From Nanobdellota archaeon (GTDB lineage Archaea; Nanobdellota; Nanobdellia; Woesearchaeales; JAHWHD01), in assembly GCA_034722435.1 (NCBI GenBank), contig JAYENX010000050.1:1-62380 (forward strand): a stretch of 62,380 bases of DNA, given 5' to 3'. The translations under genes were made by a program, and so were the position numbers. The notes below the pieces were generated by a model. That model did no database searches. It had not been told where the DNA came from and saw only the letters and a list, made by a program, of their open reading frames with translations. Shown one piece after another: positions 1,803 to 54,091 of the stretch. Position 1 is the stretch's first letter, and every line of letters starts with the position of its first letter.

Positions 1803-1815
1803 ATCCACAAGTAAT

Positions 1816-1962: not shown

Positions 1963-2075
1963 GCAGTTCATTTACCCTAAAGTTCTTGCAACCACAATCT
2001 CAAGGACTTGATTCAAATATAAAAAAAACAAAACTATATAAAAACCCGAAAAATAACTCAAACAAGGTGATGTAC

Positions 2076-4407: not shown

Positions 4408-5418
4408 ATGACATTTTCAATAAAAAAAGGTTTTAGACAATTTCTTATACGTTTAGGAATATTTGCAATTATTCTATACTTAATTGTTCCAGCGATTATC
4501 AATTTTTTTGCAAAAAACAAACAACTAGCATTCATTTATAGAGGAGATTACATAGATATCTTCATAATAAGCGTAGTTATAACATTCACACTTCTAAAAA
4601 GACAAGAACTATTAAAAATTAAACCTTATAAAAATAACATCATAGAAACCAGCATATTTACCATCATTTCAGGTTTATTTTTCTATTTACTATACTATAA
4701 CAAATATTTAATTAATCTTTCATATCTTGCAACCCATTCAAGAACTGTTATAATGTTCACATTTCTATTCTATATTCTTGGAATAATTTTTCTAGGACTT
4801 GCAATATTTAACATGAAAATATTTTACAAATTTTTTAATAGTATCATAAGTTCAATAGGAATTTTAATTGTATATATATGCTCAATCTTAATACTCAATT
4901 CGCATTGGAGATTTTTCGCAAACCTAATTGCCAAAGGTTCAGCTTTTTTATTACGTTTAACATTTAACAATGTCATACTAGACCTTTCAAAAACTGACCC
5001 ATTACTAGGTGCTGAACAATTTTCAGTAATTATAGGTTCACCTTGTTCAGGAATCACATCCTTAAGCATGTTCATAGGCCTTTTTCTTTTAATTACGATT
5101 ATAGATTATAATAAATTAATAAAAAATAAGATATTCCCTTATTTAACAGCAGGCATAATTGGAATGTTTGCAGTAGCCACTCTAAGAGTATACGCTTTAA
5201 TGGTTGTTGGAATCAAAATTTCACCAGAATACGCTTTAAACGCTTTCCATAACAACGCAGGATGGATATTCTTCATAACATATCTCATCATTTTCTGGTA
5301 CTTTGTATATCCTAAACTATTTAAAAAGGCAAATAAAAAACCTAAAACAATAAAAACAGCTAAAAAGAAAACAAAAAATAGAAGAAAAAAAAGCAATAGT
5401 AAAGCACGTAAGAAGTAA
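4408..5418 (+). CDS. exosortase/archaeosortase-family transpeptidase-like membrane protein with a Lys/Arg-rich C-terminal tail
   Basis: Polytopic membrane ORF. It has a Cys motif (IGSPCSGITSL), an Arg (ATLRVYALMV) and a His (AFHNNAGWIFF) in the order and spacing of the archaeosortase catalytic triad. The tail reads KKANKKPKTIKTAKKKTKNRRKKSNSKARKK. Confidence 0.6.
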   Translation: MTFSIKKGFRQFLIRLGIFAIILYLIVPAIINFFAKNKQLAFIYRGDYIDIFIISVVITFTLLKRQELLKIKPYKNNIIETSIFTIISGLFFYLLYYNKYLINLSYLATHSRTVIMFTFLFYILGIIFLGLAIFNMKIFYKFFNSIISSIGILIVYICSILILNSHWRFFANLIAKGSAFLLRLTFNNVILDLSKTDPLLGAEQFSVIIGSPCSGITSLSMFIGLFLLITIIDYNKLIKNKIFPYLTAGIIGMFAVATLRVYALMVVGIKISPEYALNAFHNNAGWIFFITYLIIFWYFVYPKLFKKANKKPKTIKTAKKKTKNRRKKSNSKARKK

Positions 5419-5451
5419 TATTTATAAACAAACTCTGTTTCTGTGTACACT

Positions 5452-6801
5452 ATGGTACTTGACAAACTTGGCGGCTCTTTAAAGAATACACTACAAAAAA
5501 TAGCCAGTTCCATGTTCGTAGATGAAAAATTAGTAAACGAATTAGTTAAAGATATCCAGCGCGCTTTACTTCAATCAGATGTAAATGTTAAACTTGTTTT
5601 TGAACTAACAAACTCTATCAAAAAAAGAATCCTAAAAGAAGATACACCTGCGGGACTAACTAAAAAAGAATATTTAATAAATGTAGTATATGAAGAACTA
5701 ACCCAATTCTTGGGAGCAAAAGCTCACGAAATTAACATAAATAAAAAACCTACAAAAATTATGCTTGTAGGTCTTTTCGGTAACGGTAAAACTACAACAG
5801 CTGCTAAACTTGGAAAATATTTTCAAAAACGTCAATCAAAAGTTGCATTAATATCAACCGATACATGGAGACCTGCAGCTTTCGAACAACTTAAACAGCT
5901 AGGAGGACAAATCAATGCTGATGTTTTCGGAAACCCTGAACTAAAAGATCCTATTAAAATCTATAAATCTTTTGAACCTAAACTTTCAAAATACGATATA
6001 ATTATAATTGATACAGCAGGACGTGACGCACTTTCTGATGAACTGATTGAAGAACTTAACAGTATCAACAACGTCGTTCAACCTGACGAAACAATACTTG
6101 TAATGGCGGCCGATGTTGGACAAGCAGCACAAAAACAAGCAGAAACATTTGCAGAAACATGCAAAGTATCTGGCGTAATAATAACAAAGCTTGACGGTAC
6201 TGCTAAAGGTGGTGGCGCATTAACCGCTTGTTCAGTAACTAAAGCTCCAGTCAAATTCATAGGTATAGGCGAGAAAATTGACGACCTTGAAGTTTTTAAC
6301 CCTGAACGGTTCGTAGGACGACTTCTCGGAATGGGAGATCTTGCTACATTACTTGAAAAAGCTCGAGATGCTATCTCAGAAGAAGATGCTCAAGACCTAG
6401 GTAAGAAATTTTTGAAAGGTAAATTCAACCTTCTTGACCTTTACGAACAAATGCGTGCAATGTCAAAAATGGGCCCTCTAGGTAAAATAGTCGAAATGAT
6501 TCCCGGATTTTCACAACTCAAACTCCCTAAAGATGCTATCAAGGTACAAGAAGGAAAATTAAAAAAATGGCGAAATATAATGGACAGCTGTACAAAAAAA
6601 GAACTTGAAGAACCAGAAATAATTTCAAGAAACAGAATTGACAGAATTTCTCGAGGTTCAGGTTGTGGAGCCAGCGAAGTAAGAGAGCTCCTTAAACAAC
6701 ATAAACAAGCAAAAAAGATGTCAAAAATGCTCAAACCAGGCAAAGGAAATAACATGCAACAAATGATGAAAAAGTTCCAAGGTAAATTTCCGGGTAAATA
6801 A
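5452..6801 (+). CDS. srp54: signal recognition particle protein SRP54
   Basis: GTPase motifs GLFGNGKTTT, DTAGR and TKLDG, plus a Met-rich M domain. The canonical N-terminus MVLDKLGGSL starts at ATG 5452. The GTG at 5443 is rejected. Confidence 0.95.
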   Translation: MVLDKLGGSLKNTLQKIASSMFVDEKLVNELVKDIQRALLQSDVNVKLVFELTNSIKKRILKEDTPAGLTKKEYLINVVYEELTQFLGAKAHEININKKPTKIMLVGLFGNGKTTTAAKLGKYFQKRQSKVALISTDTWRPAAFEQLKQLGGQINADVFGNPELKDPIKIYKSFEPKLSKYDIIIIDTAGRDALSDELIEELNSINNVVQPDETILVMAADVGQAAQKQAETFAETCKVSGVIITKLDGTAKGGGALTACSVTKAPVKFIGIGEKIDDLEVFNPERFVGRLLGMGDLATLLEKARDAISEEDAQDLGKKFLKGKFNLLDLYEQMRAMSKMGPLGKIVEMIPGFSQLKLPKDAIKVQEGKLKKWRNIMDSCTKKELEEPEIISRNRIDRISRGSGCGASEVRELLKQHKQAKKMSKMLKPGKGNNMQQMMKKFQGKFPGK

Positions 6802-7020: not shown

Positions 7021-8295
7021 ATGATAATAGCAGATCTACACATTCACGGAAGACATTCTCAAGCAACTTCTAAAGATATTAATATCCCAAACTTAGAAAA
7101 ATGGGCAAACATCAAAGGCGTTGACCTTTTAGGAACAGGCGATTTTACACATCCAAAATGGATTGAACACTTAAAAGAAGAACTTACTGATGACGGTTCA
7201 GGAATATTAAGAACAAAAACAAACTTTCCATTCTTACTTCAAACAGAAATATCTTTAATATATAGCCAAGACGGTAAAGGACGAAGGATACACAATGTTA
7301 TACTTGCACCAAACTTTGAAGTCGTACAACAAATAACCGACTACTTATTAACAAAAGGACGGATAGATTATGACGGCAGACCCATTTTCGGAATACCCTG
7401 TCCAGAATTTGTTGAAAGTCTAAAAAAGATAAGTAAAAAGATAGAAATTATCCCCGCACATATATGGACACCTTGGTTCTCTCTCTTCGGTTCAAAGTCT
7501 GGCTTTGATAGAATCGAAGATTGCTTTAAAGATCAAACAAAACATATCCACGCTTTAGAAACTGGGCTAAGCAGCGACCCGGCAATGAACTGGCGCATCT
7601 CAGCTCTTGATAAATATTCACTTATTTCGTCATCAGATCTTCATTCGTTCTGGCCTTGGAGAATTGGGAGAGAAGCCACTTTATTTGACTTAAAAAAGCT
7701 TACTTACGACAATATAATAAAAGCGCTCAGAACAAAAAAAGGCCTTGCAGAAACTATTGAAGTCGACCCAAACTACGGAAAGTACCATGTTGACGGTCAC
7801 AGAAAATGTAATGTTAGATTCACTCCTGAACAAACAAGAAAATTGAGAGGTATCTGTCCAGTATGTAAAAAACCTCTAACCATAGGAGTTCTTTACAGGG
7901 TTGAAGAACTAGCAGACAGACCGGAAGGGTTTAAACCAAAAAACGCTAAACCTTTCAGAACGCTCATACCCCTTTCTGAAATACTATCTAAAGTTCTTGG
8001 TAGAGCTCTCAATACAAAAACGGTCTGGACAGAATACAACAAACTTCTTACAGAATTTAAAAGCGAAATGAACATCCTACTTAATGTTAACAAGAAATCT
8101 CTTACAAAGATTACAAATGAAAAAATTGCAAATATTATTATGAATAACAGAATTGGCCAAATAGAGGTTCAACCAGGTTTTGATGGAGAATACGGAGTCC
8201 CTGTATTCAATGATAAAGACAGACAAAAATTCGCTGAAATAGATATAGAAAAAAATAAAAATAATAACCCACAAAAAGGTTTAGATCAATTCTAA
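7021..8295 (+). CDS. endonuclease Q (PHP-like nuclease acting on deaminated bases)
   Basis: Motifs ADLHIHGRHS, GTGDFTHP, PAHIWTPW, ETGLSSD, SSDLHS and GKYHVDGH, a zinc finger CPVCKKPLTIGV, and C-terminal PGFDGEYG. The architecture and length match EndoQ. Confidence 0.8.
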   Translation: MIIADLHIHGRHSQATSKDINIPNLEKWANIKGVDLLGTGDFTHPKWIEHLKEELTDDGSGILRTKTNFPFLLQTEISLIYSQDGKGRRIHNVILAPNFEVVQQITDYLLTKGRIDYDGRPIFGIPCPEFVESLKKISKKIEIIPAHIWTPWFSLFGSKSGFDRIEDCFKDQTKHIHALETGLSSDPAMNWRISALDKYSLISSSDLHSFWPWRIGREATLFDLKKLTYDNIIKALRTKKGLAETIEVDPNYGKYHVDGHRKCNVRFTPEQTRKLRGICPVCKKPLTIGVLYRVEELADRPEGFKPKNAKPFRTLIPLSEILSKVLGRALNTKTVWTEYNKLLTEFKSEMNILLNVNKKSLTKITNEKIANIIMNNRIGQIEVQPGFDGEYGVPVFNDKDRQKFAEIDIEKNKNNNPQKGLDQF

Positions 8296-12779: not shown

Positions 12780-12904
12780 CCAAATCAATTAGAAGTTTTT
12801 GATTTATATAGTTTACTATCCTCATTTATATTAACCCAAAACTCTAAACATTCAAATAAAAAAATCACCAAACATTTAAATACTGTTTAAATATAAATAC
12901 TACA

Positions 12905-15212: not shown

Positions 15213-15647
15213 TCACTTTTTATTTAAATCATCAGTTATTACGTGTTTTTCCAATTCCTTAATCAATCGAGGTATCTCCCTAACTGCTTCTTTAACTGTC
15301 TCTATATCAATATTATCCCCATAATAATTGATTCCATTCCTTAACCTTCTATATCTATCAAACTTTTTATAAACAGATTCCTCATTTAAAACATCCCTCA
15401 AAAAATAACTGATAGATATATGATCTAAAAACTTATATCCATACAAATAACCAAGAGCTTCGCAGTATTCTCTTAAACCTTCATACAATTCTCTTAAAAT
15501 TGTTTTAGTGGAATTAATATTCAAAGATATCAATTTAGCAGTCATAACAGCCTGAGTTGAAGACTTAAACAAACTTAAAGCACGTATTTTATTTAAATTG
15601 ACTTTTTTAACTTTACCTTCACCTAAACAGAACTCAAAATTCATCAT
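15213..15647 (-). CDS. HEPN-domain protein (pair 1)
   Basis: All-helical 144-aa protein with FDRYRRLRNGINYYG. It is paralogous to the ORF at 30359-30778, and its start overlaps the stop of the upstream NTase. Confidence 0.65.
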   Translation of the reverse strand: MMNFEFCLGEGKVKKVNLNKIRALSLFKSSTQAVMTAKLISLNINSTKTILRELYEGLREYCEALGYLYGYKFLDHISISYFLRDVLNEESVYKKFDRYRRLRNGINYYGDNIDIETVKEAVREIPRLIKELEKHVITDDLNKK

Positions 15648-16174
15648 ATAACCTCTAACTCACCAGATAAAACAATACCATTACAAATGTTATTCACCAA
15701 ATTAGGATTTGATTTCTTCATATTTTTCCAGTCCTTTTTACTAAATTTATGTATAGATACTTTTCTATTCAGTATCTTCTCATATTTCTTAACAGAAAAA
15801 TCTTTATCAACATTGGAAATTAAACAAATATCTATATCACTGGTTAAATCATCCATTGCAGAAGCATAACTTCCAAATAAAACAATAACTGGAAAGTCAA
15901 ACTTTTGTTCCAAATCTTCAACAAGATTAGACTCTCTAATTTTTTCAAAGTTATAATAAAATTTCAAATTCAAAGTTTTTTTAGTTAAAAACAACCTAAA
16001 AAACGAATACACTCCTTCTTTTTTTAAAAACAAAAACCCCTCTTTGACTAACATATTAAGATACTGTCTAACAGTAGTATGATTAATTTCTAAAATTCTT
16101 GCAAGTTCCCTAATACTAAATTTCCTATTAGGATCTTCAAAAAAAGATTTAAGAATGGTTAGTTTTCTTTCCAT
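15644..16174 (-). CDS. winged-HTH + minimal nucleotidyltransferase (MNT-like, pair 1)
   Basis: wHTH segment FSIRELARILEINHTTVRQYLNMLVKEGFL. Polbeta-type NTase motif FGSYASAMDDLTSDIDI (G[SG] ... DxD). Confidence 0.7.
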   Translation of the reverse strand: MERKLTILKSFFEDPNRKFSIRELARILEINHTTVRQYLNMLVKEGFLFLKKEGVYSFFRLFLTKKTLNLKFYYNFEKIRESNLVEDLEQKFDFPVIVLFGSYASAMDDLTSDIDICLISNVDKDFSVKKYEKILNRKVSIHKFSKKDWKNMKKSNPNLVNNICNGIVLSGELEVI

Positions 16175-17488: not shown

Positions 17489-17767
17489 TTATAAATTTTT
17501 ATAAATATTCTTTCTATGACCTACTTTGATTACCAAGATAAGCAATTTACCATTATCAATATCCATTAATATCCTATAATCGCCCACCCTTAACTTAAAA
17601 ACATTATCACCAACCAGCTTCGTAACATAAGATTCAGGCCTTATTCTAATCCTCTGCAAAGAATTGATTATCCTTTTTTGAATATCTTTTTCCAATTTAA
17701 GGAATTGTTTTTTAGCCTTATCGGAAAATAATAAATCATACACGAAAAAAACACCTCGTTTTTTCAT
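17489..17767 (-). CDS. RelE/ParE-family type II toxin
   Basis: FKLRVGDYRILMDIDNGKLLILVIKVGHRKNIY matches the RelE/StbE C-terminal signature. The ORF is 92 aa. Confidence 0.8.
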   Translation of the reverse strand: MKKRGVFFVYDLLFSDKAKKQFLKLEKDIQKRIINSLQRIRIRPESYVTKLVGDNVFKLRVGDYRILMDIDNGKLLILVIKVGHRKNIYKNL

Positions 17768-18020: not shown

Positions 18021-18087
18021 AGTGAACTATAGTACGCTGTAGTATATAAAATTTTCGTAATTTTAAAAGAAATCAACATATCAAAAT

Positions 18088-18999
18088 TCAACCAGCCATT
18101 CGAAATTCGCCCACGTAATAATCAGGTTTAGAATTAACGACTTTTTTATTCTTTGTTTCTGAATGTTTTCCTACAACAGAAATACCCATACATGAAGATT
18201 GGAGAGTCATCGCATACTCTACTGCCTCTCTCACATCTAAATCATCCGATAAAATCCTTACATCTTCTCCAGCCATTTCAGCAATAGCGTACGCTGTAGA
18301 AACTAAATTAAGGTCAGCAGTTACACCGTTATGAAACTTTTCAATCGAATCTCTCACTCCAGATATAGAAATATTATGTACTCTATCAGATAAATCTCTA
18401 CAAATATTTGTAATCTTATCCTTCAACCTATCCCTTTTCTCAGGCTGTTTACAAAGTTCATTCGCTATACCTTCATACAACAATTCACAATCAGGCTCAT
18501 AATTAAACTCTCTAGCAGCAATATTCATTGCTTCCGTTCTATACATATCCATTGCAAGGTCTGTAAGCTGCCTTACAACACTTCTATCATGCATATACGC
18601 CTTTACAAGCCCAGGATTATCACGTGCAACTTCATAAGCCAAAGTCTTAGTCAATAACCCGCGAAACTGTTCAAAAAACTCACCAGTCTCAAAATCATGA
18701 ACTCTTGAAGAATCCTTTCTAAACAATCTAGAAATACTAAGAGTGTTATTATATTTATATATACTATTACCATATTTCCGTTCAAATTTTCGCAAAGCTT
18801 CAGCACCAAGATTACGCTTAGCAAACTCAATACCCATCCTTTTAGCATTAATCAAAGGATCAAACTTAACAGACTGTTGCTCGGCATTTTTCCAAGCATC
18901 AACCTCTCCAAGAACTTTAACAGTAACTCGATCATCTTTTCTTAAATGCGTTTTATCAATATCTTCAAGGCTACAAGTATCTAATATTGTAATAGTCAT
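18088..18999 (-). CDS. hypothetical protein, possibly a PIN-like nuclease split by a ~190-aa helical insertion
   Basis: N-terminal strand TILDTCSL and C-terminal ADLNLVSTAYAIAEMAGEDVRILSDDLDV resemble the first and last acidic PIN motifs. The start at ATG 18999 fits the promoter geometry. The ATG at 19017 is too close to the TATA box. Confidence 0.35.
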   Translation of the reverse strand: MTITILDTCSLEDIDKTHLRKDDRVTVKVLGEVDAWKNAEQQSVKFDPLINAKRMGIEFAKRNLGAEALRKFERKYGNSIYKYNNTLSISRLFRKDSSRVHDFETGEFFEQFRGLLTKTLAYEVARDNPGLVKAYMHDRSVVRQLTDLAMDMYRTEAMNIAAREFNYEPDCELLYEGIANELCKQPEKRDRLKDKITNICRDLSDRVHNISISGVRDSIEKFHNGVTADLNLVSTAYAIAEMAGEDVRILSDDLDVREAVEYAMTLQSSCMGISVVGKHSETKNKKVVNSKPDYYVGEFRMAG

Positions 19000-19020
19000 A
19001 TCCAAGAGATAAACCATCGA

Positions 19021-19064
19021 AATATTTAAAGATTTCGCTTTGTTACCACTTTAAAGAGACTAAG
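19021..19064 (-). promoter_or_regulatory. Copy 2 of the conserved ~43-nt promoter element
   Basis: The minus-strand reading is cttagtctctttaaagtggtaacaaagcgaaatctttaaatatt. It shares 34/43 identity with the secA copy. The TATA centre lies 27.5 nt from the ATG at 18999. Confidence 0.6.
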
Positions 19065-19405: not shown

Positions 19406-19519
19406 TTATTTTCACCTTATATAATTTATAAACCTTGTAAACAAGAGTTTCTTATAAAAGTTATTCAAAACTCTAATGACTCGAAACATATATAAATCAC
19501 TTATTGATTCTATCCAAGT

Positions 19520-19777
19520 ATGGACGCAGTTATAGTAAGCTTCAGACGAAGCAGACACACCCAGAAGGATAATCATATGATTTTATCAGTTCCAGGTATC
19601 GAAGATAAGGAAAAAGCAACCCCTTTAGTAGGTAAAACAGTCGTTTTCACCACAGAATCCAAAAAGGAGATTAAAGGCAAAGTTGCAGCAGCACACGGCA
19701 CCAAAGGAGCCATTAGAGCCATTTTCGAGAAAGGAATGCCTGGTCAAAGCCTAGGAAAGAAAGTAAAAATCGAATAA
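19520..19777 (+). CDS. rpl35ae: 50S ribosomal protein L35Ae (eL33)
   Basis: RRSRHTQ...LVGKTVVF...GKVAAAHGTKGAIRAIFEKGMPGQSLGKKV matches the L35Ae signature. A TATA box lies about 27 nt upstream. Confidence 0.85.
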   Translation: MDAVIVSFRRSRHTQKDNHMILSVPGIEDKEKATPLVGKTVVFTTESKKEIKGKVAAAHGTKGAIRAIFEKGMPGQSLGKKVKIE

Positions 19778-19923: not shown

Positions 19924-20058
19924 TTAACCACATATACTTAGAGCAGTAGGTATAATATCTGTAGCTACAAGATATGTTAGAATGATTCCAAATAATAAAC
20001 CTGTAACAAACCCTTTCACAAGATCTGCAAAGCTTGTAATAAAACCTCTTTTATCCAT
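19924..20058 (-). CDS. 44-aa single-TM mini-protein downstream of secA
   Basis: Not in the ORF track because it is under 60 aa. Sequence MDKRGFITSFADLVKGFVTGLLFGIILTYLVATDIIPTALSICG. An AAGGTGAT Shine-Dalgarno sits 5 nt upstream. It lies 60 nt after the secA stop on the same strand. Confidence 0.45.
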   Translation of the reverse strand: MDKRGFITSFADLVKGFVTGLLFGIILTYLVATDIIPTALSICG

Positions 20059-20118: not shown

Positions 20119-22605
20119 TCAGAGCACCGAATCAAGGAACCCTGCATTAATCCTATCCCACATTTTTTGATACATCAGATTACCATCATCTCCGTACCTC
20201 CTTTTAGGCGGAATTGTAGAATTTTTCTGAGTCATATAAATAATATCTTTTAATTTACCCATTTCAGTAAGATGTTCTTGCCATGAAACATCAATCGCAT
20301 TTAACATAGCCTTTCGTTCTACTCCTCCCATAACCTCAGAACCAAGACGTTTAACTCTTTTAACGTACGCATCATGCACTTTAATATACAAAAATTTAGC
20401 CACATCTTCTTCAGATTCTAAAACCTCGGCTGTGACATCAGCATCTAAAACAACATTTGCCCATTCAGATAATCGATCATAATCAACATTTGATTCTTCA
20501 GAAAGTATTTTAACTGTGGACACTACTCCATCCCATAATCTATCAAGAGTTTTGTCTTGATTATATTCGGTAGAAGTCAATAAACTCTGCCTTAAAGAAT
20601 ATGTCGCAGCTCTATGTCCCTCCAATACATCTGAAAATTCTTTAAGAGATTTTCTCCCATCAAAATGCATAGATTCAACACGTTTTTGAGAATCTTTTAT
20701 CAACCTAGTAACCTGACCAGATTCAATAGATTCGCCATATTCACCAAGTCTACGAAAAACTTTTTTTACCATCTCCCCACCAAATATTTTAATTATATCA
20801 TCTTCAAGAGAAACTTTAAATCTTGACTCACCAGGATCACCCTGCCTACCACCTCTGCCTCTTAACTGATTATCGACTCTCCTCGAATGATGCCTTTCAG
20901 TTCCAAGAATATATAAACCACCAAGCTCAATAATTTCATCATGTTCAGTTTGCCACTTTTCTAAAGCCTCAGAACCTTCAGGCTTTTTTCCACCAAGCTC
21001 AATATCTGTCCCTCTTCCAGCCATGTTTGTTGCAACAGTCACAGCACCTTTCTTACCAGCATCTGCAATAATCTTACCTTCTTCTTCATGATTCTTTGCA
21101 TTAAGAACATTATGAGGAATTTTTAATTCCTTCAACATCCCACTAAGATTCTCTGAAGCTTCAACAGATTTAGTACCAATCAAAATTGGCCTTCTTTTTT
21201 CATACGACTGTTGCACATCCTTAACCACAGCTTCCCATTTTTCTTTTGCAGTTAAATATACTTCATCAAGTTGTTCTTTTCTAATTAACGGTTTATTAGT
21301 AGGTATTTCAACCACTTCCAAATTATAAGTCTTATTAAATTCTGCAGCATCAGTCATAGCAGTACCAGTCATTCCAGATAGTTTATCATATAAACCAAAA
21401 AAGTTTTGAAACGCTATCTGAGCAATAGTTCTATTCTCTGATTTTACACGAACACCATCCCTCAAATGTCTCGCCTCAACAGCTTGATGTAAACCCTCAC
21501 TCCAACGCCTTCCAGGCTGTTTTCTACCAGTTTGCTCATCAATAATGACAATCTCATCATCATAAACAACATAATCTTTATCTTCATTATAAAGTTCTTT
21601 TGCATATAAAGACTGTAAAACTTGGTGTTCCATAACAGCTTGCTCAGGATTATGAAACTCTACTTCCTCATTGACAAGATCTGAAAGCTTTCTTTCAGCC
21701 TTTAATGTACCATCAGAAGTCAATACTATTGTATGTTTCTTTTTATCAACTGTATAATCTCCACCCTCTTTAAGGATATTCGCTGCCTCTAAAGCATTAT
21801 AATATCCTTCAACAGGAGTATCAGTCTGTCCCGAAATTATCAAAGGCGTTCTAGCTTCATCAATAAGTAAACTATCAACCTCATCAACCACAGCAAAAGC
21901 AAAACCTCTCTGAACCTGTTCATCAACTGAAAGAGCCATATTATCTCTCAAGAAATCAAACGCGAACGTATTACCAGTACCATAAGTAATATCACAATTA
22001 TAAGCTTCTTTTTTTTCTAATTCTGAAGAATCTTGTTTAACTGTTCCAACTGTTAAACCTAAAAACTCATATACAGGTTTCATTAAATCCTTATCTCTAT
22101 CAGCAAGATAATCATTAACAGTTATAACGTGTACAGGATCTCCCATTAAAGCGTTTAGATAAGCAGGAAGTGTAGCTGCAAGAGTTTTACCCTCACCAGT
22201 CACCATCTCAGCAATCTTTCCTTGATGAAGAACCATACCACCTATAAGCTGAACATCATAATGTCTTTGTCCAATAGTACGTTTTGCAGTTTCTCTGACA
22301 ACAGCATAAGCCTCTGGCAGAAAATGATCAAACACTTTCTGCCTGATCTCAACTTTCTGTTTAGTAGATTTAGTATCATATTTTACTTTATCATAAATTG
22401 TTTGAATTCTTTCCCTAAACTCACCAGTTTTTGATTTTAAATCATCATCAGAAAGACTAGTAAGATGAGATTCAAGAGAATTAATCTTATCAATAGTTGG
22501 AGCTAAAACATCCAATTCACGTTCATTGCTACTGCCAAATACAGTCAATAAACCGTTATGTACAGCACCAGTCATAGTATGCCATATATCTGTTAAACCA
22601 ACCAT
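20119..22605 (-). CDS. secA: preprotein translocase ATPase SecA (bacterial type, no C-terminal zinc finger)
   Basis: N-terminus LLTVFGSSNERELD..INSLE..LSDDDLKSKTGEFRERI, Walker A MVTGEGKTLAATLPAYLNAL, DEAD-like VDEVDSLLIDEARTPLIISG, TNMAGRGTDI, and HHSRRVDNQLRGRGGRQGDPG. The start at ATG 22605 is 26.5 nt from the TATA centre. ATG 22575 is an alternative. The TTG at 22626 is rejected. Confidence 0.93.
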   Translation of the reverse strand: MVGLTDIWHTMTGAVHNGLLTVFGSSNERELDVLAPTIDKINSLESHLTSLSDDDLKSKTGEFRERIQTIYDKVKYDTKSTKQKVEIRQKVFDHFLPEAYAVVRETAKRTIGQRHYDVQLIGGMVLHQGKIAEMVTGEGKTLAATLPAYLNALMGDPVHVITVNDYLADRDKDLMKPVYEFLGLTVGTVKQDSSELEKKEAYNCDITYGTGNTFAFDFLRDNMALSVDEQVQRGFAFAVVDEVDSLLIDEARTPLIISGQTDTPVEGYYNALEAANILKEGGDYTVDKKKHTIVLTSDGTLKAERKLSDLVNEEVEFHNPEQAVMEHQVLQSLYAKELYNEDKDYVVYDDEIVIIDEQTGRKQPGRRWSEGLHQAVEARHLRDGVRVKSENRTIAQIAFQNFFGLYDKLSGMTGTAMTDAAEFNKTYNLEVVEIPTNKPLIRKEQLDEVYLTAKEKWEAVVKDVQQSYEKRRPILIGTKSVEASENLSGMLKELKIPHNVLNAKNHEEEGKIIADAGKKGAVTVATNMAGRGTDIELGGKKPEGSEALEKWQTEHDEIIELGGLYILGTERHHSRRVDNQLRGRGGRQGDPGESRFKVSLEDDIIKIFGGEMVKKVFRRLGEYGESIESGQVTRLIKDSQKRVESMHFDGRKSLKEFSDVLEGHRAATYSLRQSLLTSTEYNQDKTLDRLWDGVVSTVKILSEESNVDYDRLSEWANVVLDADVTAEVLESEEDVAKFLYIKVHDAYVKRVKRLGSEVMGGVERKAMLNAIDVSWQEHLTEMGKLKDIIYMTQKNSTIPPKRRYGDDGNLMYQKMWDRINAGFLDSVL

Positions 22606-22626
22606 ATCCTTACCATAGAAAAACAA

Positions 22627-22669
22627 CTATTTAAATGTTTCGTTTTGTTGCCACTATTAAGTGACTAAC
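22627..22669 (-). promoter_or_regulatory. Copy 3 of the conserved ~43-nt promoter element (secA promoter)
   Basis: The minus-strand reading is gttagtcacttaatagtggcaacaaaacgaaacatttaaatag. It contains a CGAAA BRE and a TTTAAATA TATA box. Confidence 0.6.
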
Positions 22670-22753: not shown

Positions 22754-23560
22754 ATGGTCAACGGAACATCAGCATCACCTACAGGATATTCAATAAGAGA
22801 TTCAAAAATAACTAAATATATCATAGGAGGACTCGCAGTAGCAACTTTATTAGGAAGTTTCGGATACCTTTTCTCAGGATGTTCATCTTCAAAACCTAAA
22901 AAACCGTCTAAACTTGAACAAACACTAGAATTTGGAAATGCTAAAGAAATCAAATTTCCAACAGGAAAAATTTCTAAAAAAGGTTTCAGACTTTACGATG
23001 TGTTAGGTGGTGTCATAAAAGGCGATAAACATGTTGAAGGAACAGGTTCACAATTTATCTGGAACAAAACCACTAACAAATTCAGCGTAAGAGTTGCTAA
23101 AGGTCTAGAAGTAGTTGATAAAATATACACAGATAGAGCTTGCACTCAAAAAATGGATGCAAAATTCATAGGTTATAGTGCAAATACTAAATCTGATGGA
23201 AGTGGTTTACACGGAACTGTGAATAAATACTGGAGATTAACAAACGGATCAGAAGTATCTAAAGAGTTCGCTCCAGCAAATAATCAGGCCTACACAAACA
23301 ATCTTGCAAAAGCTAACGAGTTTTTCACATACGCTAAAAATGCGCACGAAGAAAACATAAAAAACAGACATAAAAGAGCTATTGCAGCACAGAAAGCAAG
23401 TGCCGATAGGATTAAAGCACCAAACGCTAAAAAACCTAAAGCAACAGTTCCTGATAGAAATTTACCATCAGCTAGCACAGCAAATACATTTTTAGGAACA
23501 AGTGCATCCGCAAATAACGGAACAGTAACTCCTGCACTTCCAAAAGTTAGAACAAATTAA
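22754..23560 (+). CDS. lipobox-anchored surface protein, paralogous module shared with the ORF at 23630
   Basis: GGAGGG Shine-Dalgarno. TM/signal ending in LFSGC. GTGSQFIWNKTTNKFSVRVAKG and PANNQAYTNNLAKANEFFTYAK align with segments of the 774-aa neighbour. Confidence 0.6.
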   Translation: MVNGTSASPTGYSIRDSKITKYIIGGLAVATLLGSFGYLFSGCSSSKPKKPSKLEQTLEFGNAKEIKFPTGKISKKGFRLYDVLGGVIKGDKHVEGTGSQFIWNKTTNKFSVRVAKGLEVVDKIYTDRACTQKMDAKFIGYSANTKSDGSGLHGTVNKYWRLTNGSEVSKEFAPANNQAYTNNLAKANEFFTYAKNAHEENIKNRHKRAIAAQKASADRIKAPNAKKPKATVPDRNLPSASTANTFLGTSASANNGTVTPALPKVRTN

Positions 23561-23629: not shown

Positions 23630-25954
23630 ATGTCATTAATAGACAAAATAAAAAATTATATTCCATCAACCAGAACATTACTAAAAGGTACAGCAATCGG
23701 AATAGGCTTAGGACTCTTCGCTATGTATGCGGCAGCAAGCACTGCTGAAGCTAGAACTATTAAATTTGAAATTAAAGGAAAACAAAACCCTTACCAAGTA
23801 CTTCAAAAAAAAGGAGGAGATGATCAAAAGAGAGTTTACAAGTTCTTAGGAAAACAAAAAAAACCAAATTCAGGAAAAACACTTGCACACTGCCTAGGCG
23901 GTAAATATAAGGTTACTATAGATGATTCTACTAATGAAGTTACTAAAATAAAAGGAAAACTTCCTAGATGGTACAACCCATCTGTAAATGCAGCAACAAC
24001 AGCTCAAACAAGACAAAGTTCTAGAACTCAAACTAGAACCGCAGCTAATACTACAAAAAAAATAGCACAAGATAATAGCTACAAAATCAAAGTAAATTAT
24101 TATGATAAAAATGGTCAACCAAAGGGGTCTGCTTTCGAAGTAGTTCCAAACGGAAAAGTCCCTGAACAAGGTTGGAATCTTGAACATAAAGGAGACAACT
24201 TCATCTTTAACAAAGCACTTAATAGATTCAGAGTTAAATACGGCAAAAATAAAAGACCAAATGTTAAACAATTCTTTGGCGAGAAATACCTTAAATATAG
24301 CAGAAGAGAAATCTTCGGATTAGAAGGAGTTGTAAAAAAAGGCAAAGTTGGCGACAACATAAGTATATTCTTAGTAAAAGAATCAAAAGGTAAACCAGTT
24401 AAAGAACTTGAAAAGTATCCTATAAGTGCAAACAATCAAGCACACACAAATCTTAAACAAGACATAACAGATTATCTTAGTTTTGCATCAAAAGAATCAA
24501 AAAAAGCATTCAAACACCAAAGAAAAGAAGTGTTAGAAACTCTTAGTAACACAAGTAACATAAGAGTTCCTACAATGGGAAATCTTAAAACCTTTTTACT
24601 TGGTGGAAGCACACCTACTACTCCAAATAGAAATACAAGATTACCTTATGCTAACACAGGAAATACATACGTAGGCGCAAGTAATACAGCTAGTATAGGA
24701 GCAACAGGATTAGCTACCGCAGGTGCAGCAGCAACTATATACACTACAAATCCAGTATCAATAAGATCTGTGCCAAGTTCAACTACATCAACAACCAGTA
24801 CAGCAGCGACAAGAACAGTAACTTCGACAGCATCAACTGGAAGAACCACACCCACAACTCTAACAATAACATCAATAGCAAGTACAACTCCAACAACATC
24901 AGTAAGAAGTACACCCGCTACAACTAAAACAACAGACTCAAATTTAACAATGCCTAGTTATACATTACCAAAATCAACACCATTCAACATAAATTCAAAT
25001 AACAAAAGTACAACCCCTAAACCAAAAAGTAAAGCAAAACCAGTAACAAAACCAACAACTTTCACAGGCAACGAAAAAACTAATAAGAAAAAGAACCAAT
25101 ACGATTGGGGAAAAACAATTAAAATAAACCTTGGCAATAAAGTTATAAAATTCCAAGTTCAAGGAAAACCTCACAGTTATAGAGACGGTATATTTAACAG
25201 CGGAGAATGGGGCTTTAAAAGTTTTATAGGTAATCAAAAGAGAAACACAGGTTACAAATTAGTCAAAGATCTATACAAAAGTAAAAGTACTGAGATTAAT
25301 GCTATTAAAGATGTAAATGGAACTTTCACATATCAGAAGAAATCTAGCGGATGGGAGAAAGTAGTTATACCAGTAGAACCAAAAGTTGTAATATCAAAAC
25401 CTACAGCAGTACCTACTCCAACACCTAAACCTGCTAGAAGACGAATTAAACTTAGATCAACTCCAAAAGCAACACCAAAAAGAGTGGCTAAACCAACTCC
25501 CTCTGTTACACCAACTCCAAGTCCTACACCAAAACCAACAACAGTAGATGACTCAACATTTGACGGTATTTTTGAAAATCCTGAACCAAGATTTTTTAAA
25601 CCTACTAGAAGAGCTACTCCAACACCAACAGTTACACCAAGTCCTACTGCAACACCTACACCAACTCCAGCTACAACAGCAAGTGGAACAGTAACAGCTT
25701 CATCCACTCCTAAACCTAAAACATGGAAAGAATTTGATATACCTCCATCATTCATACCATTAATACCAAAACATATTACAACCGTAGAACAATTTCAAGG
25801 ATCTACTAAAAATGATATTAAAATAACGCATTCCCCAACAAAAGTCACATTAACACCAAAGAATAATATTATTGTAACATACGATGATGAAGTAACAAAA
25901 CCAGTTAAAGTACCACCATATATGCACAGGGAACTTAAAAGATTAAGAAAGTAA
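23630..25954 (+). CDS. large signal-anchored surface protein with two Thr/Ser/Pro-rich mucin-like tracts
   Basis: GAGGAGG Shine-Dalgarno. Signal GTAIGIGLGLFAMYAAASTAEA. Repeated basic beta-rich modules. T/S tract at ~24770-24940 and TP-rich tract at ~25400-25725. Confidence 0.6.
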   Translation: MSLIDKIKNYIPSTRTLLKGTAIGIGLGLFAMYAAASTAEARTIKFEIKGKQNPYQVLQKKGGDDQKRVYKFLGKQKKPNSGKTLAHCLGGKYKVTIDDSTNEVTKIKGKLPRWYNPSVNAATTAQTRQSSRTQTRTAANTTKKIAQDNSYKIKVNYYDKNGQPKGSAFEVVPNGKVPEQGWNLEHKGDNFIFNKALNRFRVKYGKNKRPNVKQFFGEKYLKYSRREIFGLEGVVKKGKVGDNISIFLVKESKGKPVKELEKYPISANNQAHTNLKQDITDYLSFASKESKKAFKHQRKEVLETLSNTSNIRVPTMGNLKTFLLGGSTPTTPNRNTRLPYANTGNTYVGASNTASIGATGLATAGAAATIYTTNPVSIRSVPSSTTSTTSTAATRTVTSTASTGRTTPTTLTITSIASTTPTTSVRSTPATTKTTDSNLTMPSYTLPKSTPFNINSNNKSTTPKPKSKAKPVTKPTTFTGNEKTNKKKNQYDWGKTIKINLGNKVIKFQVQGKPHSYRDGIFNSGEWGFKSFIGNQKRNTGYKLVKDLYKSKSTEINAIKDVNGTFTYQKKSSGWEKVVIPVEPKVVISKPTAVPTPTPKPARRRIKLRSTPKATPKRVAKPTPSVTPTPSPTPKPTTVDDSTFDGIFENPEPRFFKPTRRATPTPTVTPSPTATPTPTPATTASGTVTASSTPKPKTWKEFDIPPSFIPLIPKHITTVEQFQGSTKNDIKITHSPTKVTLTPKNNIIVTYDDEVTKPVKVPPYMHRELKRLRK

Positions 25955-29843: not shown

Positions 29844-30368
29844 ATGTTCAAAGAAATAAACACATTAAAACCATTCTTAGAAGAACCAAATAAAGAGTTC
29901 AATGTAAGAGAACTTGCAAGATTGCTTAATATCGCACCAGCAACAGCAAGCAAAAAACTAAAATATTTCACAAAAAATAAAATCCTAAAACAAAGAGAAG
30001 AAAGAATGCTTCTTTTATATAAAGCAGATCTTGACTCAGAATTTTATAAAGATCTTAAAATATACTACAATATAAGAAAAATCAAAAAATCCGGACTAAT
30101 AGAAATCTTAAACAAATTCTACCTCAAACCCTCTATCACACTTTTCGGTTCAACTGCTACAGGCCTCGACACTAAAACAAGCGACATTGACTTGTTCGTT
30201 GAAACTGAACAAAAATCACAGATAAAAGAACTCAAAACATTTGAAAAAAAAATAAACAGAACCTTACAAATACTAACCGCCTCAGATATTAAAAAACTTA
30301 AAAACCCTCATTTAATAAACAATATACTTAATGGTATTACTATACAAGGAACTCTAAAATGGATTTAA
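29844..30368 (+). CDS. winged-HTH + minimal nucleotidyltransferase (MNT-like, pair 2)
   Basis: wHTH FNVRELARLLNIAPATASKKLKYFTKNKIL. NTase motif FGSTATGLDTKTSDIDLFV. Paralog of the ORF at 15644-16174. Confidence 0.7.
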   Translation: MFKEINTLKPFLEEPNKEFNVRELARLLNIAPATASKKLKYFTKNKILKQREERMLLLYKADLDSEFYKDLKIYYNIRKIKKSGLIEILNKFYLKPSITLFGSTATGLDTKTSDIDLFVETEQKSQIKELKTFEKKINRTLQILTASDIKKLKNPHLINNILNGITIQGTLKWI

Positions 30369-30778
30369 ATGAATGTTTCAAAAAAGGACTTATTAAAAAA
30401 ACCAAGATAGATACCGAACTCTCAAAATCTTTAATTGAAATGTCCAATATTAAAGAAAATACTGTTAAAAAAGCAAATATAGATAATATAAACATATCAG
30501 TCTATGTCTCAGTAGCTTATGATTCATTAAGAGAAATTCTCGAAGCAATCTGTATAATGCAAGGGTATAAAGTAATCTCACACATTTGTATAGGAAAACT
30601 TTTAAAAGAATCTATTACCCAAGAAGACTATCAAGAATTCGACAGAGTCCGCTGGATTCGAAACAGTATCAATTATTACGGAGAAAAAGTTGAATTTCAG
30701 CAAGGCAAAGAAATCATAAACAAGATTTTCAATATAAAGAGAAGATTATTAAATAACAATTTAAAGGAATTAAACTAA
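30359..30778 (+). CDS. HEPN-domain protein (pair 2)
   Basis: FDRVRWIRNSINYYG aligns with pair 1. It overlaps the NTase by 10 nt, and its stop TAA (30776-30778) overlaps the gltX ATG. Confidence 0.65.
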   Translation: MDLNECFKKGLIKKTKIDTELSKSLIEMSNIKENTVKKANIDNINISVYVSVAYDSLREILEAICIMQGYKVISHICIGKLLKESITQEDYQEFDRVRWIRNSINYYGEKVEFQQGKEIINKIFNIKRRLLNNNLKELN

Positions 30779-41965: not shown

Positions 41966-42166
41966 ATGGAATTTCAAAAACAAGAAAAGCAAAGTACATG
42001 GTTTAAAATTAAAAGATTCGGTAAAGAATGTAAACGAGTCTTAAAAATTACAAGAAAACCTTCAGGTGACGAATTCAAGACAATTGTCAAAATTTCGGCT
42101 ATTGGACTTGCAGTCATCGGATTAATTGGATTCGTAATAGCAATAATTAAACAGGTGTTTTTTTAA
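41966..42166 (+). CDS. secE: protein translocase subunit SecE / Sec61gamma
   Basis: 66 aa with one C-terminal TM. ECKRVLKITRKPSGDEF motif. Conserved position upstream of spt5/L11. Confidence 0.85.
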   Translation: MEFQKQEKQSTWFKIKRFGKECKRVLKITRKPSGDEFKTIVKISAIGLAVIGLIGFVIAIIKQVFF

Positions 42167-46134: not shown

Positions 46135-46137
46135 TCT

Positions 46138-46947: not shown

Positions 46948-46952
46948 CTAAT

Positions 46953-48392: not shown

Positions 48393-48565
48393 ATTAGTAA
48401 ATTAGTAAATTAATAAAAATAAACAATCTAAAAAACAATTAAAAAATAAACAAACAATAAGCCAACAATTAAAAAACATAAATATTATTCAAAACATCTC
48501 AAAAAACAAAATTAAATTCAAACCCAATCAAAACTTTTATATATACAAATCCCAAATATTTTCAT

Positions 48566-54055: not shown

Positions 54056-54091
54056 GAAAATTATATATACACGAGATTCTAAAACACCCGT

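What the first reader, a model, noticed from the sequence alone, without database searches (positions are those of the whole stretch)
20119..22669. Intact bacterial-type SecA motor ATPase in an otherwise archaeal genome, expressed from an archaeal BRE/TATA promoter
Seen in the sequence: an 828-835-aa ORF carries every SecA hallmark I can recognise. These are the N-terminal LLTVFGSSNEREL..INSLE..LSDDDLKSKTGEFRERI, Walker A MVTGEGKTLAATLPAYLNAL, VDEVDSLLIDEARTPLIISG, TNMAGRGTDI and RRVDNQLRGRGGRQGDPG. There is no C-terminal zinc-finger tail. The surrounding 60 kb is archaeal throughout (thermosome, eL33, Spt5, Sec61gamma, LonB, Pth2, DtdA, EndoQ, archaeal GluRS). Established knowledge: the canonical archaeal Sec pathway uses SecYE(beta), SRP and SecDF and is regarded as lacking SecA. 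Also seen: the gene has a CGAAA-TTTAAATA BRE/TATA whose centre is 26.5 nt from the ATG at 22605. This leaderless geometry matches its neighbours, and the AT-rich composition looks native. Inference: the gene is an anciently acquired and domesticated bacterial motor rather than contamination.
Basis: partly seen in the sequence, partly recalled or inferred. Interest (0 to 1): 0.72.

Follow-up and report, generated by a model that had tools for sequence, protein, structure and literature searches.

The report
Bacterial SecA motor in DPANN archaeon
A complete bacterial-type SecA protein-export motor gene sits in the chromosome of a tiny Woesearchaeota (DPANN) archaeon, a domain usually described as lacking SecA; it was acquired by gene transfer, uses archaeal expression signals, and is known from only two sister lineages.

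Summary
Window 20119-22605 (-) encodes an intact 828-aa canonical SecA. It passes the NCBIfam SecA equivalog cut-offs, has all four SecA Pfam domains and lacks the zinc-finger tail.

- **Host:** the 62 kb around it is Woesearchaeota chromosome (thermosome, archaeal LonB, archaeal GluRS, Sec61-gamma, Spt5, eL33).
- **Not a chimera:** an independent assembly (SRR7614767) has a 59%-identical SecA in the same six-gene order next to eL33, with the same BRE/TATA about 27 nt before the ATG.
- **Native look:** codon usage is typical of the window.
- **Selection:** dN/dS is about 0.27.

"Anciently acquired" is not supported. These two proteins are the only members of their clade among about 15 billion proteins. 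The nearest relatives (thermosome 87% and 81% identical) have the same eL33 locus without SecA.

The gene evolves much faster than host core genes. It has lost 9-20 of 136 positions invariant in a 37-bacterium sample and has a remodelled two-helix-finger tip. The donor is unresolved and does not look like CPR.

Most likely it is a working export ATPase acting on the archaeal SecYE-beta channel, perhaps for the secreted-protein paralogues next to it. That step is inferred.

The parts
20119..22605 (-). secA coding sequence, 828 aa plus stop. Predicted domains: NBD1, PPXD, NBD2, helical scaffold, helical wing, two-helix finger. No zinc-finger tail.
   Evidence: AlphaFold2 model: pLDDT 85.6, pTM 0.80. 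Foldseek TM-score 0.82/0.89 to SecA in the SecA-SecY complex 6ITC.
22628..22642 (-). Archaeal BRE/TATA-like promoter element CGAAACATTTAAATA. The TATA centre is 26.5 nt upstream of the ATG, which implies a leaderless mRNA.
   Evidence: The same element and spacing (27.5 nt) lie upstream of secA in L001. The motif is enriched 13 versus 1.5 expected, mostly in front of genes.
22754..23560 (+). p268, transcribed divergently from secA. It is a predicted exported or lipobox-like (FSGC) protein with a long N-region. Possible SecA client.
   Evidence: 63% identical homologue in the same position in L001. Paralogue of p774 (BLASTP 6e-10). Nothing similar at the SecA-less loci L084 and L082. No Pfam family.
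23630..25954 (+). p774, a Thr/Ser/Pro-rich predicted secreted protein and paralogue of p268.
   Evidence: A homologous N-terminus (MSLIDKI..YIPS.R) lies at the L001 contig end, downstream of the p268 homologue.
19924..20058 (-). 44-aa single-pass membrane protein directly downstream of secA, with its own TATA and Shine-Dalgarno sequence. It marks the downstream edge of the SecA-bearing segment and predates SecA.
   Evidence: 82% identical in L001. Also present next to eL33 in the SecA-less L084 (61%) and in L088. No Pfam family.
19520..19777 (+). Ribosomal protein eL33 (L35Ae), an archaeal/eukaryotic-only marker. It serves as the synteny anchor, convergent with the small gene and secA.
   Evidence: Pfam PF01247, 69 bits. 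Same arrangement in L001, L082, L084 and L088.
41966..42166 (+). Archaeal SecE/Sec61-gamma, a subunit of the host's own translocon, in the ftsZ-secE-spt5-L11 cluster.
   Evidence: TIGR00327 secE_euk_arch 60.9 bits (cut-off 36.2). Pfam SecE.
5443..6801 (+). SRP54, part of the host's co-translational targeting pathway.
   Evidence: Pfam SRP54, SRP_SPB and SRP54_N.

Best explanation
Shown:
- A canonical housekeeping-type bacterial secA was transferred into a narrow sublineage of Woesearchaeota (DPANN archaea).
- It was inserted into a variable surface-protein region just upstream of a conserved small-membrane-protein/eL33 gene pair.
- It has since been inherited vertically by at least two lineages.
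- It sits behind a native BRE/TATA at the spacing typical of leaderless genes in this window.
- Its codon usage matches the host, and it is kept open by purifying selection.
- The ATPase motor residues are intact in the window's copy: Walker A K108, the DEVD Walker B, R509, R566, R574 and R577 (E. coli numbering). The full SecA domain set is present.

Inferred:
- The protein still works as an ATP-driven preprotein motor, pushing unfolded secretory proteins post-translationally through the host's archaeal SecYE-beta channel.
- The lineage-specific changes reflect re-fitting to an archaeal channel and archaeal lipids, with some relaxation of constraint. These changes are a 13-aa N-terminal extension on the lipid-binding helix, a remodelled tip of the two-helix finger that enters SecY, four shared substitutions in the TYGTNNEFGFDY motif, and the missing zinc-finger tail.
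- Its likely clients include the lineage-specific exported paralogues p268 and p774, which occur next to it only in the SecA-bearing lineages.
For: - Identity and integrity.
- Archaeal host: Woesearchaeota thermosome hits at 73-88% identity; archaeal-specific equivalogs; Pfam context.
- Not chimeric, and vertically inherited: L001 from SRR7614767 shares p774-p268-SecA-small gene-eL33-p79-p309 at 54-83% identity.
- Promoter conserved and typical of neighbours.
- Codon usage: SecA fits the window background better than 30 of the 37 other genes compared; GC3 is 0.205 against a range of 0.16-0.335.
- Selection: dN/dS 0.27 at dS about 1.2, with a 2.5-kb ORF open in both lineages.
- Motor residues kept: 127 of 136 columns invariant in 37 bacteria are retained in the window's protein.
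- Narrow gain: the clade has two members only; there is no close relative among the best 80 matches in GTDB species genomes, none of them archaeal; empty sites in L084, L082/L083 and L088.
- p268 and p774 co-occur only with SecA.
Against: - No SecY is visible in the window, so the partner is unknown. No case of SecA acting on an archaeal or eukaryotic-type SecY/Sec61 is known to me.
- The two-helix-finger tip is not conserved. E. coli Y794 aligns to Asn in the window's protein, and the loop length differs in both archaeal proteins. This could mean loss of SecY engagement rather than adaptation.
- The gene evolves as fast as poorly constrained neighbours: 59% identity against 81% for eL33 on the same contig, and 87% for the thermosome.
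- The SRR7614767 copy has lost 20 of 136 bacterial invariants, including E218N, R220K, T221K and R572A.
- Close relatives live without SecA, so it is not essential to the clade.
- There are no expression data.
Confidence: 0.6

Rival explanations
1. SecA has taken on a new function. The gene is functional but no longer acts as a general SecY-coupled motor. It may be a cytosolic ATP-dependent holdase or targeting factor. Alternatively it may be a dedicated accessory motor for the adjacent p268/p774 family, analogous to SecA2 systems for serine-rich adhesins, possibly with a partner other than the housekeeping SecY.
For: - The two-helix-finger tip is remodelled with indels, differently in the two lineages. 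The helical scaffold and finger are the least bacterial-like of the conserved regions.
- Four shared substitutions fall in an otherwise invariant NBD1 motif.
- Evolution is accelerated.
- The p774-p268-SecA block is found only in SecA-bearing lineages.
- Close relatives do without SecA.
Against: - The protein scores as housekeeping SecA. It falls below every SecA2 model cut-off.
- All motor motifs, the PPXD clamp and the scaffold are present.
- Gene adjacency is weak evidence for a client relationship.
- p268 and p774 have no known family.
Confidence: 0.22
2. The gene is a passenger in slow decay. It is a fairly recent horizontal acquisition with little or no function, not yet inactivated.
For: - It has very fast divergence relative to core genes.
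- Bacterial invariant residues are lost, especially in the SRR7614767 copy: 116 of 136 kept, against 95-100% in bacterial leave-one-out controls.
- Distribution is patchy, with SecA-less sister genomes.
Against: - An 828-832 codon ORF stays open in two lineages separated by dS of about 1.2 in an AT-rich genome.
- dN/dS is 0.27, the same as neighbouring genes.
- The promoter and its spacing are conserved in both.
- The catalytic residues K108, D209/E210, R509, R566, R574 and R577 are kept in both copies.
Confidence: 0.1
3. The acquisition was ancient. SecA entered DPANN or Woesearchaeota long ago and was lost repeatedly, so the two carriers are relicts.
For: - The archaeal pair sits on a long stem, and no bacterial sequence is more than about 52% identical.
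- Codon usage is fully ameliorated.
Against: - Only two sister lineages carry it among about 15 billion proteins.
- SecA-less relatives have clean empty sites with no remnant.
- The high evolutionary rate inside the archaeal lineages can by itself produce the long stem. The two archaeal copies differ as much as bacterial phyla differ from one another.
Confidence: 0.15
4. The finding is an assembly chimera or bin contamination: a bacterial secA fragment joined to an archaeal contig.
For: SecA is otherwise bacterial, and DPANN and CPR organisms co-occur in the same samples.
Against: - The same gene order is found in an independent assembly from another sample, at 54-83% protein identity across at least six genes.
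- Archaeal genes lie within 350 bp on both sides.
- The gene has an archaeal promoter and host-like codon usage and GC.
- There are no flanking repeats or mobile-element genes.
Confidence: 0.02

Closest known systems
Housekeeping bacterial SecA (SecA1; e.g. E. coli 2FSF/6S0K, B. subtilis 1M6N/6ITC, T. maritima 3DIN)
   Same: - Same domain order and length of the core.
- Passes the SecA equivalog cut-offs.
- 41-49% identical to solved SecAs.
- The Walker A and B motifs, R509, R566, R574/R577, the PPXD and the scaffold are present.
- The predicted fold superposes best on SecY-bound SecA (TM-score 0.82/0.89).
   Different: - The host is an archaeon with a Sec61-gamma-type SecE.
- It has a 13-aa N-terminal extension.
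- It has no C-terminal linker or zinc finger.
- The two-helix-finger tip loop is of different length and lacks the Tyr at the E. coli 794 position.
- N179G, E181T, G183A and Y186F are shared by both archaeal copies.
- It evolves much faster than host core genes.
- It has an archaeal BRE/TATA at leaderless spacing in place of a bacterial promoter and ribosome-binding site.
Accessory SecA2 systems of Gram-positive bacteria and mycobacteria (e.g. 4UAQ, 6SXH)
   Same: - It is not universal in its clade, so it is dispensable.
- It lacks the zinc-finger tail.
- It sits next to Ser/Thr-rich predicted surface proteins with unusually long N-terminal regions. This recalls SecA2/SecY2 loci that export serine-rich adhesins (my own knowledge of those systems).
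   Different: - It scores below every SecA2 model cut-off: 735 vs 1085, 640 vs 930, 547 vs 1100 and 543 vs 725.
- No SecY2, Asp or glycosyltransferase genes are nearby.
- There is no SecA1 for it to be accessory to.
Chloroplast cpSecA (SecA functioning outside Bacteria)
   Same: It is a bacterial SecA operating in a non-bacterial lineage after transfer.
   Different: cpSecA arrived together with its bacterial SecY/E partner by endosymbiosis (established knowledge). Here a lone secA is seen, in a genome whose visible translocon subunit is archaeal.
Archaeal Sec pathway (SecYE-beta, SRP54/FtsY, sometimes SecDF)
   Same: The window encodes the normal archaeal components SRP54 and SecE/Sec61-gamma.
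   Different: Reviews state that no SecA or substitute motor has been identified in archaea, and that the energy source of post-translational export is unknown (PMC6098224; PMC7613921). This genome adds a bacterial motor.

Membership tests
SecA (housekeeping preprotein translocase ATPase) | Whole-protein score above the curated equivalog cut-offs | tested here: met
   NF009538 937 bits (cut-off 814); TIGR00963 894.7 bits (cut-off 800).
SecA (housekeeping preprotein translocase ATPase) | Domain architecture: NBD1 with the PPXD inserted, then NBD2, then the scaffold, wing and IRA1 domains | tested here: met
   Pfam SecA_DEAD 28-431, SecA_PP_bind 274-384, P-loop_SecA 446-628, SecA_SW 634-831. AlphaFold2 model pTM 0.80. 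Foldseek TM-score 0.69-0.82 to full-length SecA structures.
SecA (housekeeping preprotein translocase ATPase) | ATPase catalytic residues: Walker A GEGKT (K108), Walker B DEVD (D209/E210), arginine finger R509, motif VI R566/R574/R577 | tested here: met
   All are present in the window's protein and in P0002. P0002 has additionally lost H562, R565 and R572, and E218, R220 and T221.
SecA (housekeeping preprotein translocase ATPase) | Two-helix finger with a conserved tip (GIxLRxYxQxDP; Tyr794 in E. coli) that inserts into SecY | tested here: inconclusive
   The helix-loop-helix is predicted (H756-795, loop 796-799, H800-827). The tip sequence is not conserved: IIYMTQKNSTIPP in the window and GISIRFMVPQQKKP in P0002, with indels. 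Y794 aligns to Asn.
SecA (housekeeping preprotein translocase ATPase) | Retention of residues invariant across bacterial SecAs | tested here: inconclusive
   127 of 136 (window) and 116 of 136 (P0002) columns invariant in 37 bacteria are kept. Bacterial leave-one-out controls keep 95-100%. Constraint is therefore high, but lower than in any sampled bacterium.
SecA (housekeeping preprotein translocase ATPase) | C-terminal SecB- and zinc-binding tail (SEC-C, PF02810). Common but not universal in the family. | tested here: not met
   Absent. It is also absent from some bacterial SecAs in the hit lists (e.g. P0132, P0139), so it does not define the family.
SecA (housekeeping preprotein translocase ATPase) | Works with a SecY channel; ATPase stimulated by SecY, lipid and preprotein | not testable with these tools
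   No SecY lies in the window. Only the archaeal SecE is seen. Testing needs the full genome and biochemistry.
Accessory SecA2 | Score above a SecA2 model cut-off, and linkage to SecY2, Asp or glycosylation genes or to a SecA1 paralogue | tested here: not met
   TIGR04397 735 vs 1085; TIGR03714 640 vs 930; NF012136 547 vs 1100; TIGR04221 543 vs 725. No such neighbours were found.
Native archaeal gene (by expression signals and inheritance) | Archaeal BRE/TATA at the leaderless distance, host-like codon usage, and conserved synteny in a second lineage | tested here: met

The most novel reading that the evidence does not exclude
A hybrid translocon may exist in nature: a bacterial SecA motor re-fitted to drive post-translational export through an archaeal SecYE-beta channel in archaeal ether-lipid membranes. 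The re-fitting would involve a new N-terminal membrane anchor and a remodelled two-helix finger. The motor may be dedicated to a co-occurring family of surface proteins (p268/p774) that a DPANN episymbiont uses at its cell surface.
Probability: 0.35. Interest if true: 0.8.

Novelty: new member of a known kind. Interest (0 to 1): 0.62.

Why it matters
Reviews of archaeal secretion state that archaea have no SecA, and that the motor for post-translational Sec export in archaea is unknown (PMC6098224, PMC7613921).

A verified, selected, natively expressed SecA in an archaeal chromosome is a natural experiment. It can show whether a bacterial pushing motor can be coupled to an archaeal or eukaryote-like Sec channel, and which parts of SecA must change to do so. 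The N-terminal lipid anchor and the two-helix-finger tip are the candidates.

It also shows a cross-domain transfer of a core bacterial machine part into a DPANN archaeon, with clean occupied and empty sites to compare.

The scope is limited. The gene is confined to two sister lineages, so it does not explain archaeal secretion in general.

Tried and rejected
- **More archaeal SecA relatives.** I searched a single-sequence query, a two-sequence profile and an exhaustive HMMER scan. Only P0002 turned up. The next best hits are bacterial at about 45-52% identity.
- **GTDB species-genome scan with SecA peptides.** No record among the best 80 matches was archaeal; those were CPR, Firmicutes and others at 40-49%. 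The patterns chosen favour AT-rich genomes, so this is not a census of SecA in archaea.
- **Metagenome scan with eL33.** It returned only two distant loci, both without SecA.
- **Small 44-aa downstream gene as Sec61-beta/SecG.** Rejected. It has no Pfam match, and it occurs next to eL33 in SecA-less relatives.
- **Unannotated 424-aa ORF at 7021-8295 as a hidden SecY.** Rejected. It is a soluble PHP/TIGR00375-like protein.
- **Mobile-element signs around secA.** I looked for repeats, tRNA genes and Rfam matches and found none.
- **Donor identification.**
  - A neighbour-joining tree puts the pair weakly (57% bootstrap or less) with Planctomycetota, Acidobacteriota, Desulfobacterota and Gammaproteobacteria rather than CPR or Firmicutes. 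This is not decisive.
  - The NBD1 insertion site proved to be an indel hotspot in bacteria and is uninformative.
- **Literature.** Searches for archaeal SecA, and for SecA with DPANN or Woesearchaeota, found no report. Sample and assembly accessions were not found in the paper library.
- **Tetranucleotide signature.** SecA is somewhat atypical (r = 0.89 against a mean of 0.94, within the observed range). I judged this uninformative next to the codon-usage result.
Full report
**1. The observation**

The ORF at 20119..22626 (-) is real. Its product matches all four SecA Pfam domains: SecA_DEAD 386 bits, P-loop_SecA 254, SecA_SW 109 and SecA_PP_bind 104. It exceeds the curated cut-offs of both NCBIfam housekeeping-SecA equivalogs: 937 against 814, and 895 against 800. 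It falls below every SecA2 model.

It aligns end to end with E. coli SecA (662 bits). By E. coli numbering it keeps K108, D209/E210, D217, R509, R566, R574 and R577.

An AlphaFold2 model built on a 44-sequence alignment has mean pLDDT 85.6 and pTM 0.80. It superposes best on SecA from the substrate-engaged SecA-SecY complex 6ITC (TM-score 0.82/0.89). The SEC-C zinc-finger tail is absent.

The real start is the ATG at 22605, giving 828 aa, for two reasons:
- The only close homologue is conserved from that Met onward.
- The upstream TTG at 22626 lies two bases after the TATA box.

**2. The host is an archaeon**

Curated archaeal-specific models hit on both sides of secA:
- eL33 at 19520-19777
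- archaeal LonB, 846 bits
- thermosome, 806 bits
- gltX_arch, 489 bits
- Sec61-gamma-type SecE, 61 bits
- Spt5, 164 bits
- archaeal-type D-aminoacyl-tRNA deacylase (DtdA)

SRP54, FtsZ, L11, KaiC and DUF835 proteins are also present.

The thermosome's nearest named relatives are Candidatus Woesearchaeota / Nanoarchaeota MAGs at 73-88% identity. No Pth2 hit was found. "EndoQ" is only a sub-threshold TIGR00375 match.

**3. Not a chimera**

Among 5.8 billion protein clusters, the only close homologue is P0002 (59% identity, 832 aa). It lies on a 7.4-kb contig from a different data set, SRR7614767.

That contig (L001) has the same gene order:

| Gene | Identity to the window |
|---|---|
| partial p774-like gene | homologous N-terminus (identity not computed) |
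| p268 | 63% |
| SecA | 59% |
| 44-aa membrane protein | 82% |
| eL33 | 81% |
| p79 | 56% |
| p309 | 54% |

A second contig from the same run (L086) carries the thermosome/FtsZ/Spt5/GluRS block at 80-90% identity. It probably comes from the same organism as L001; that link is an inference.

SecA's synonymous codon usage fits the window background better than 30 of the 37 other genes compared. Its GC and GC3 are in range. No repeats, tRNA genes or mobile-element genes flank it.

**4. Expression signals**

CGAAACATTTAAATA lies at 22642-22628 (-). The TATA centre is 26.5 nt before the ATG. L001 has GCGAAAGGTTTATATA with its centre 27.5 nt before its ATG.

The motif CGAAANNTWTAWATA (up to 1 mismatch) occurs 13 times against 1.5 expected, and 0 of 100 shuffles reach 13. 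By my own count, seven sites lie 26.5-27.5 nt before a start codon. These include the sites for eL33 and p309. This is the geometry of leaderless archaeal mRNAs.

Other genes in the window instead have GGAGG or GGTGA ribosome-binding sites.

**5. Distribution and history**

A two-sequence profile scores the two archaeal proteins at 1744 and 1762 bits, and the next protein at 851. An exhaustive HMMER scan of 1.84 billion cluster representatives gives 692 bits as the next best. No record among the best 80 matches in GTDB species genomes is a close relative, and none is archaeal.

The nearest relatives of the host lack the gene at the same locus:
- NCBI MAG GCA_019323525.1 (L084; thermosome 87% and GluRS 75% identical) has 221-aa gene / about 150 bp / small membrane gene / eL33.
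- The DRR851375 lineage (L082/L083; thermosome 81%) has 786-aa gene / 40-aa gene / eL33.
- A more distant JGI contig (L088) again has the small gene next to eL33.

tblastn finds no SecA remnant in any of them.

The SRR7614767 organism is closer to the window than L084 is. GluRS is 80% against 75%, eL33 81% against 73%, and the small protein 83% against 61%. The simplest history is therefore one gain in the common ancestor of the two carriers. Ancient gain with repeated loss is not excluded, but nothing supports it.

The p268/p774 family occurs next to SecA in both carriers. Nothing similar occurs at the empty sites.

**6. Donor**

In a neighbour-joining tree of 37 labelled bacterial SecAs, the archaeal pair is monophyletic (100% bootstrap) on a long stem. 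It groups weakly (57% or less) with Planctomycetota, Acidobacteriota, Desulfobacterota, Omnitrophota and Gammaproteobacteria. It does not group with CPR or Firmicutes. Identities to all phyla lie in a narrow band of 43-52%, so the donor is unresolved.

**7. Mode of evolution**

dN/dS between the two copies is 0.27 at dS of about 1.2, like the neighbouring genes. A 2.5-kb ORF that stays open at this divergence in an AT-rich genome argues for function.

Constraint is nevertheless lower than in bacteria:
- SecA is 59% identical where eL33 on the same contig is 81% and the thermosome 87%.
- In the PPXD, NBD2 and scaffold, the two archaeal copies differ as much as bacterial phyla differ from one another.
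- Of 136 columns invariant in the 37 bacteria, the window's protein keeps 127 and P0002 keeps 116. Leave-one-out bacteria keep 95-100%.
- Both copies share changes that include N179G, E181T, G183A and Y186F in the TYGTNNEFGFDY motif.
- The tip of the two-helix finger, which enters the SecY funnel, has different sequence and length in each copy. It lacks Tyr at the E. coli 794 position.
- Both copies share a 13-aa N-terminal extension in front of the helix that binds lipid in bacteria.

**8. Interpretation**

Shown:
- The gene is a real, horizontally acquired, natively promoted and selected canonical SecA.
- It is confined to a narrow Woesearchaeota subclade.

Inferred:
- It still acts as an ATP-driven export motor, most simply on the host's archaeal SecYE-beta.
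- The N-terminal and finger changes reflect re-fitting.
- Its clients may include the adjacent p268/p774 proteins.

The main rival is a changed role: a chaperone, or a dedicated accessory motor. Decay without function is unlikely, and a chimera is excluded.

**9. Comparison with the literature**

Reviews state that no SecA or substitute has been identified in archaea (PMC6098224; PMC7613921). Full-text searches found no report of an archaeal SecA. That library omits most subscription journals. I could not survey archaeal-labelled SecA entries in databases.

I file the protein as a new member of the SecA family in an unexpected domain. If it works on an archaeal channel, the system would be a new variant.

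Noticed in passing
window 19924-20058 (-); L001 3869-4003; L084 11126-11266; L088 6604-6741: A 44-46 aa single-pass membrane protein (M.K.GF.TSF.D..KGF...L..GI.LTYLVA..IIP.A.SIC) lies convergent with eL33 in every related Woesearchaeota locus examined except the DRR851375-lineage loci (L082/L083), whether or not SecA is present. In L082/L083 a 40-aa gene holds the same position but showed no detectable similarity. In the window and L084 it has its own TATA box and a GGTGA ribosome-binding site. It has no Pfam family. It is more conserved (82%) than most neighbouring genes.
   Followed up: partly
window 22754-23560 (+) and 23630-25954 (+); L001 414-1178 and 1-330: p268 and p774 are paralogues (BLASTP 6e-10) of an unannotated, lineage-specific exported-protein family. 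Both have long N-terminal regions; p268 has an FSGC lipobox-like site and p774 is Thr/Ser/Pro-rich. The family is seen only in the two SecA-bearing lineages.
   Followed up: partly
window, 13 sites, e.g. 12868-12882, 18043-18057, 19023-19037, 19482-19496, 48529-48543, 54055-54069: The promoter motif CGAAANNTWTAWATA is about 8-fold enriched. At seven sites the TATA centre is 26.5-27.5 nt before the start codon, which implies leaderless mRNAs. Other genes (thermosome, p268, p774, 26049) have GGAGG- or GGTGA-type ribosome-binding sites, so the genome mixes both initiation modes.
   Followed up: partly
window 18088-19017 (-): The listed start of p309 is probably too far upstream. The TATA box ends 5 nt before that ATG. 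The L001 homologue starts at the Met 18 nt downstream (18999), which restores the 27.5-nt leaderless spacing.
   Followed up: partly
window 15213-16174 (-) and 29844-30778 (+); 17489-17767 (-): There are two nucleotidyltransferase (NTP_transf_2/Polbeta) genes, each paired with an overlapping small ORF, which look like MNT/HEPN toxin-antitoxin modules. There is also a ParE-toxin family gene. All lie in the variable regions that differ from related contigs.
   Followed up: no
window 43838-48176 (-); L082 680-5026: A cluster of a beta-propeller (PQQ/FG-GAP-like) protein, a KaiC-like ATPase and two paralogous DUF835 membrane proteins is conserved in the relative L082. It may be a signalling module.
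   Followed up: no
whole window: GC skew is negative almost throughout: cumulative skew reaches -11.4 over 62 kb, with a brief slightly positive stretch at about 40-44 kb. AT skew is positive over most of the window. The trend runs across stretches whose genes lie on either strand, suggesting a replication- or mutation-linked strand asymmetry.
   Followed up: no
L001 (P0002) residues about 249-257 and 572-583: The SRR7614767 SecA copy has replaced several residues that are invariant in the sampled bacteria. IDEARTPLII has become IDNAKKPFIL, and in motif VI it has H562N, R565K and R572A. It still keeps the catalytic Lys, the DEVD motif and the arginine finger. Its ATPase regulation may differ from the window's copy.
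   Followed up: partly
window 1986-3965 (+), 687-1808 (-), 4408-5418 (+): Three other genes stood out: a ThrRS with TGS and second-additional domains (bacterial/eukaryote-like layout), a MATCAP/DUF1704-family protein, and an exosortase/archaeosortase-family protein. The last suggests C-terminal sorting of surface proteins.
   Followed up: no
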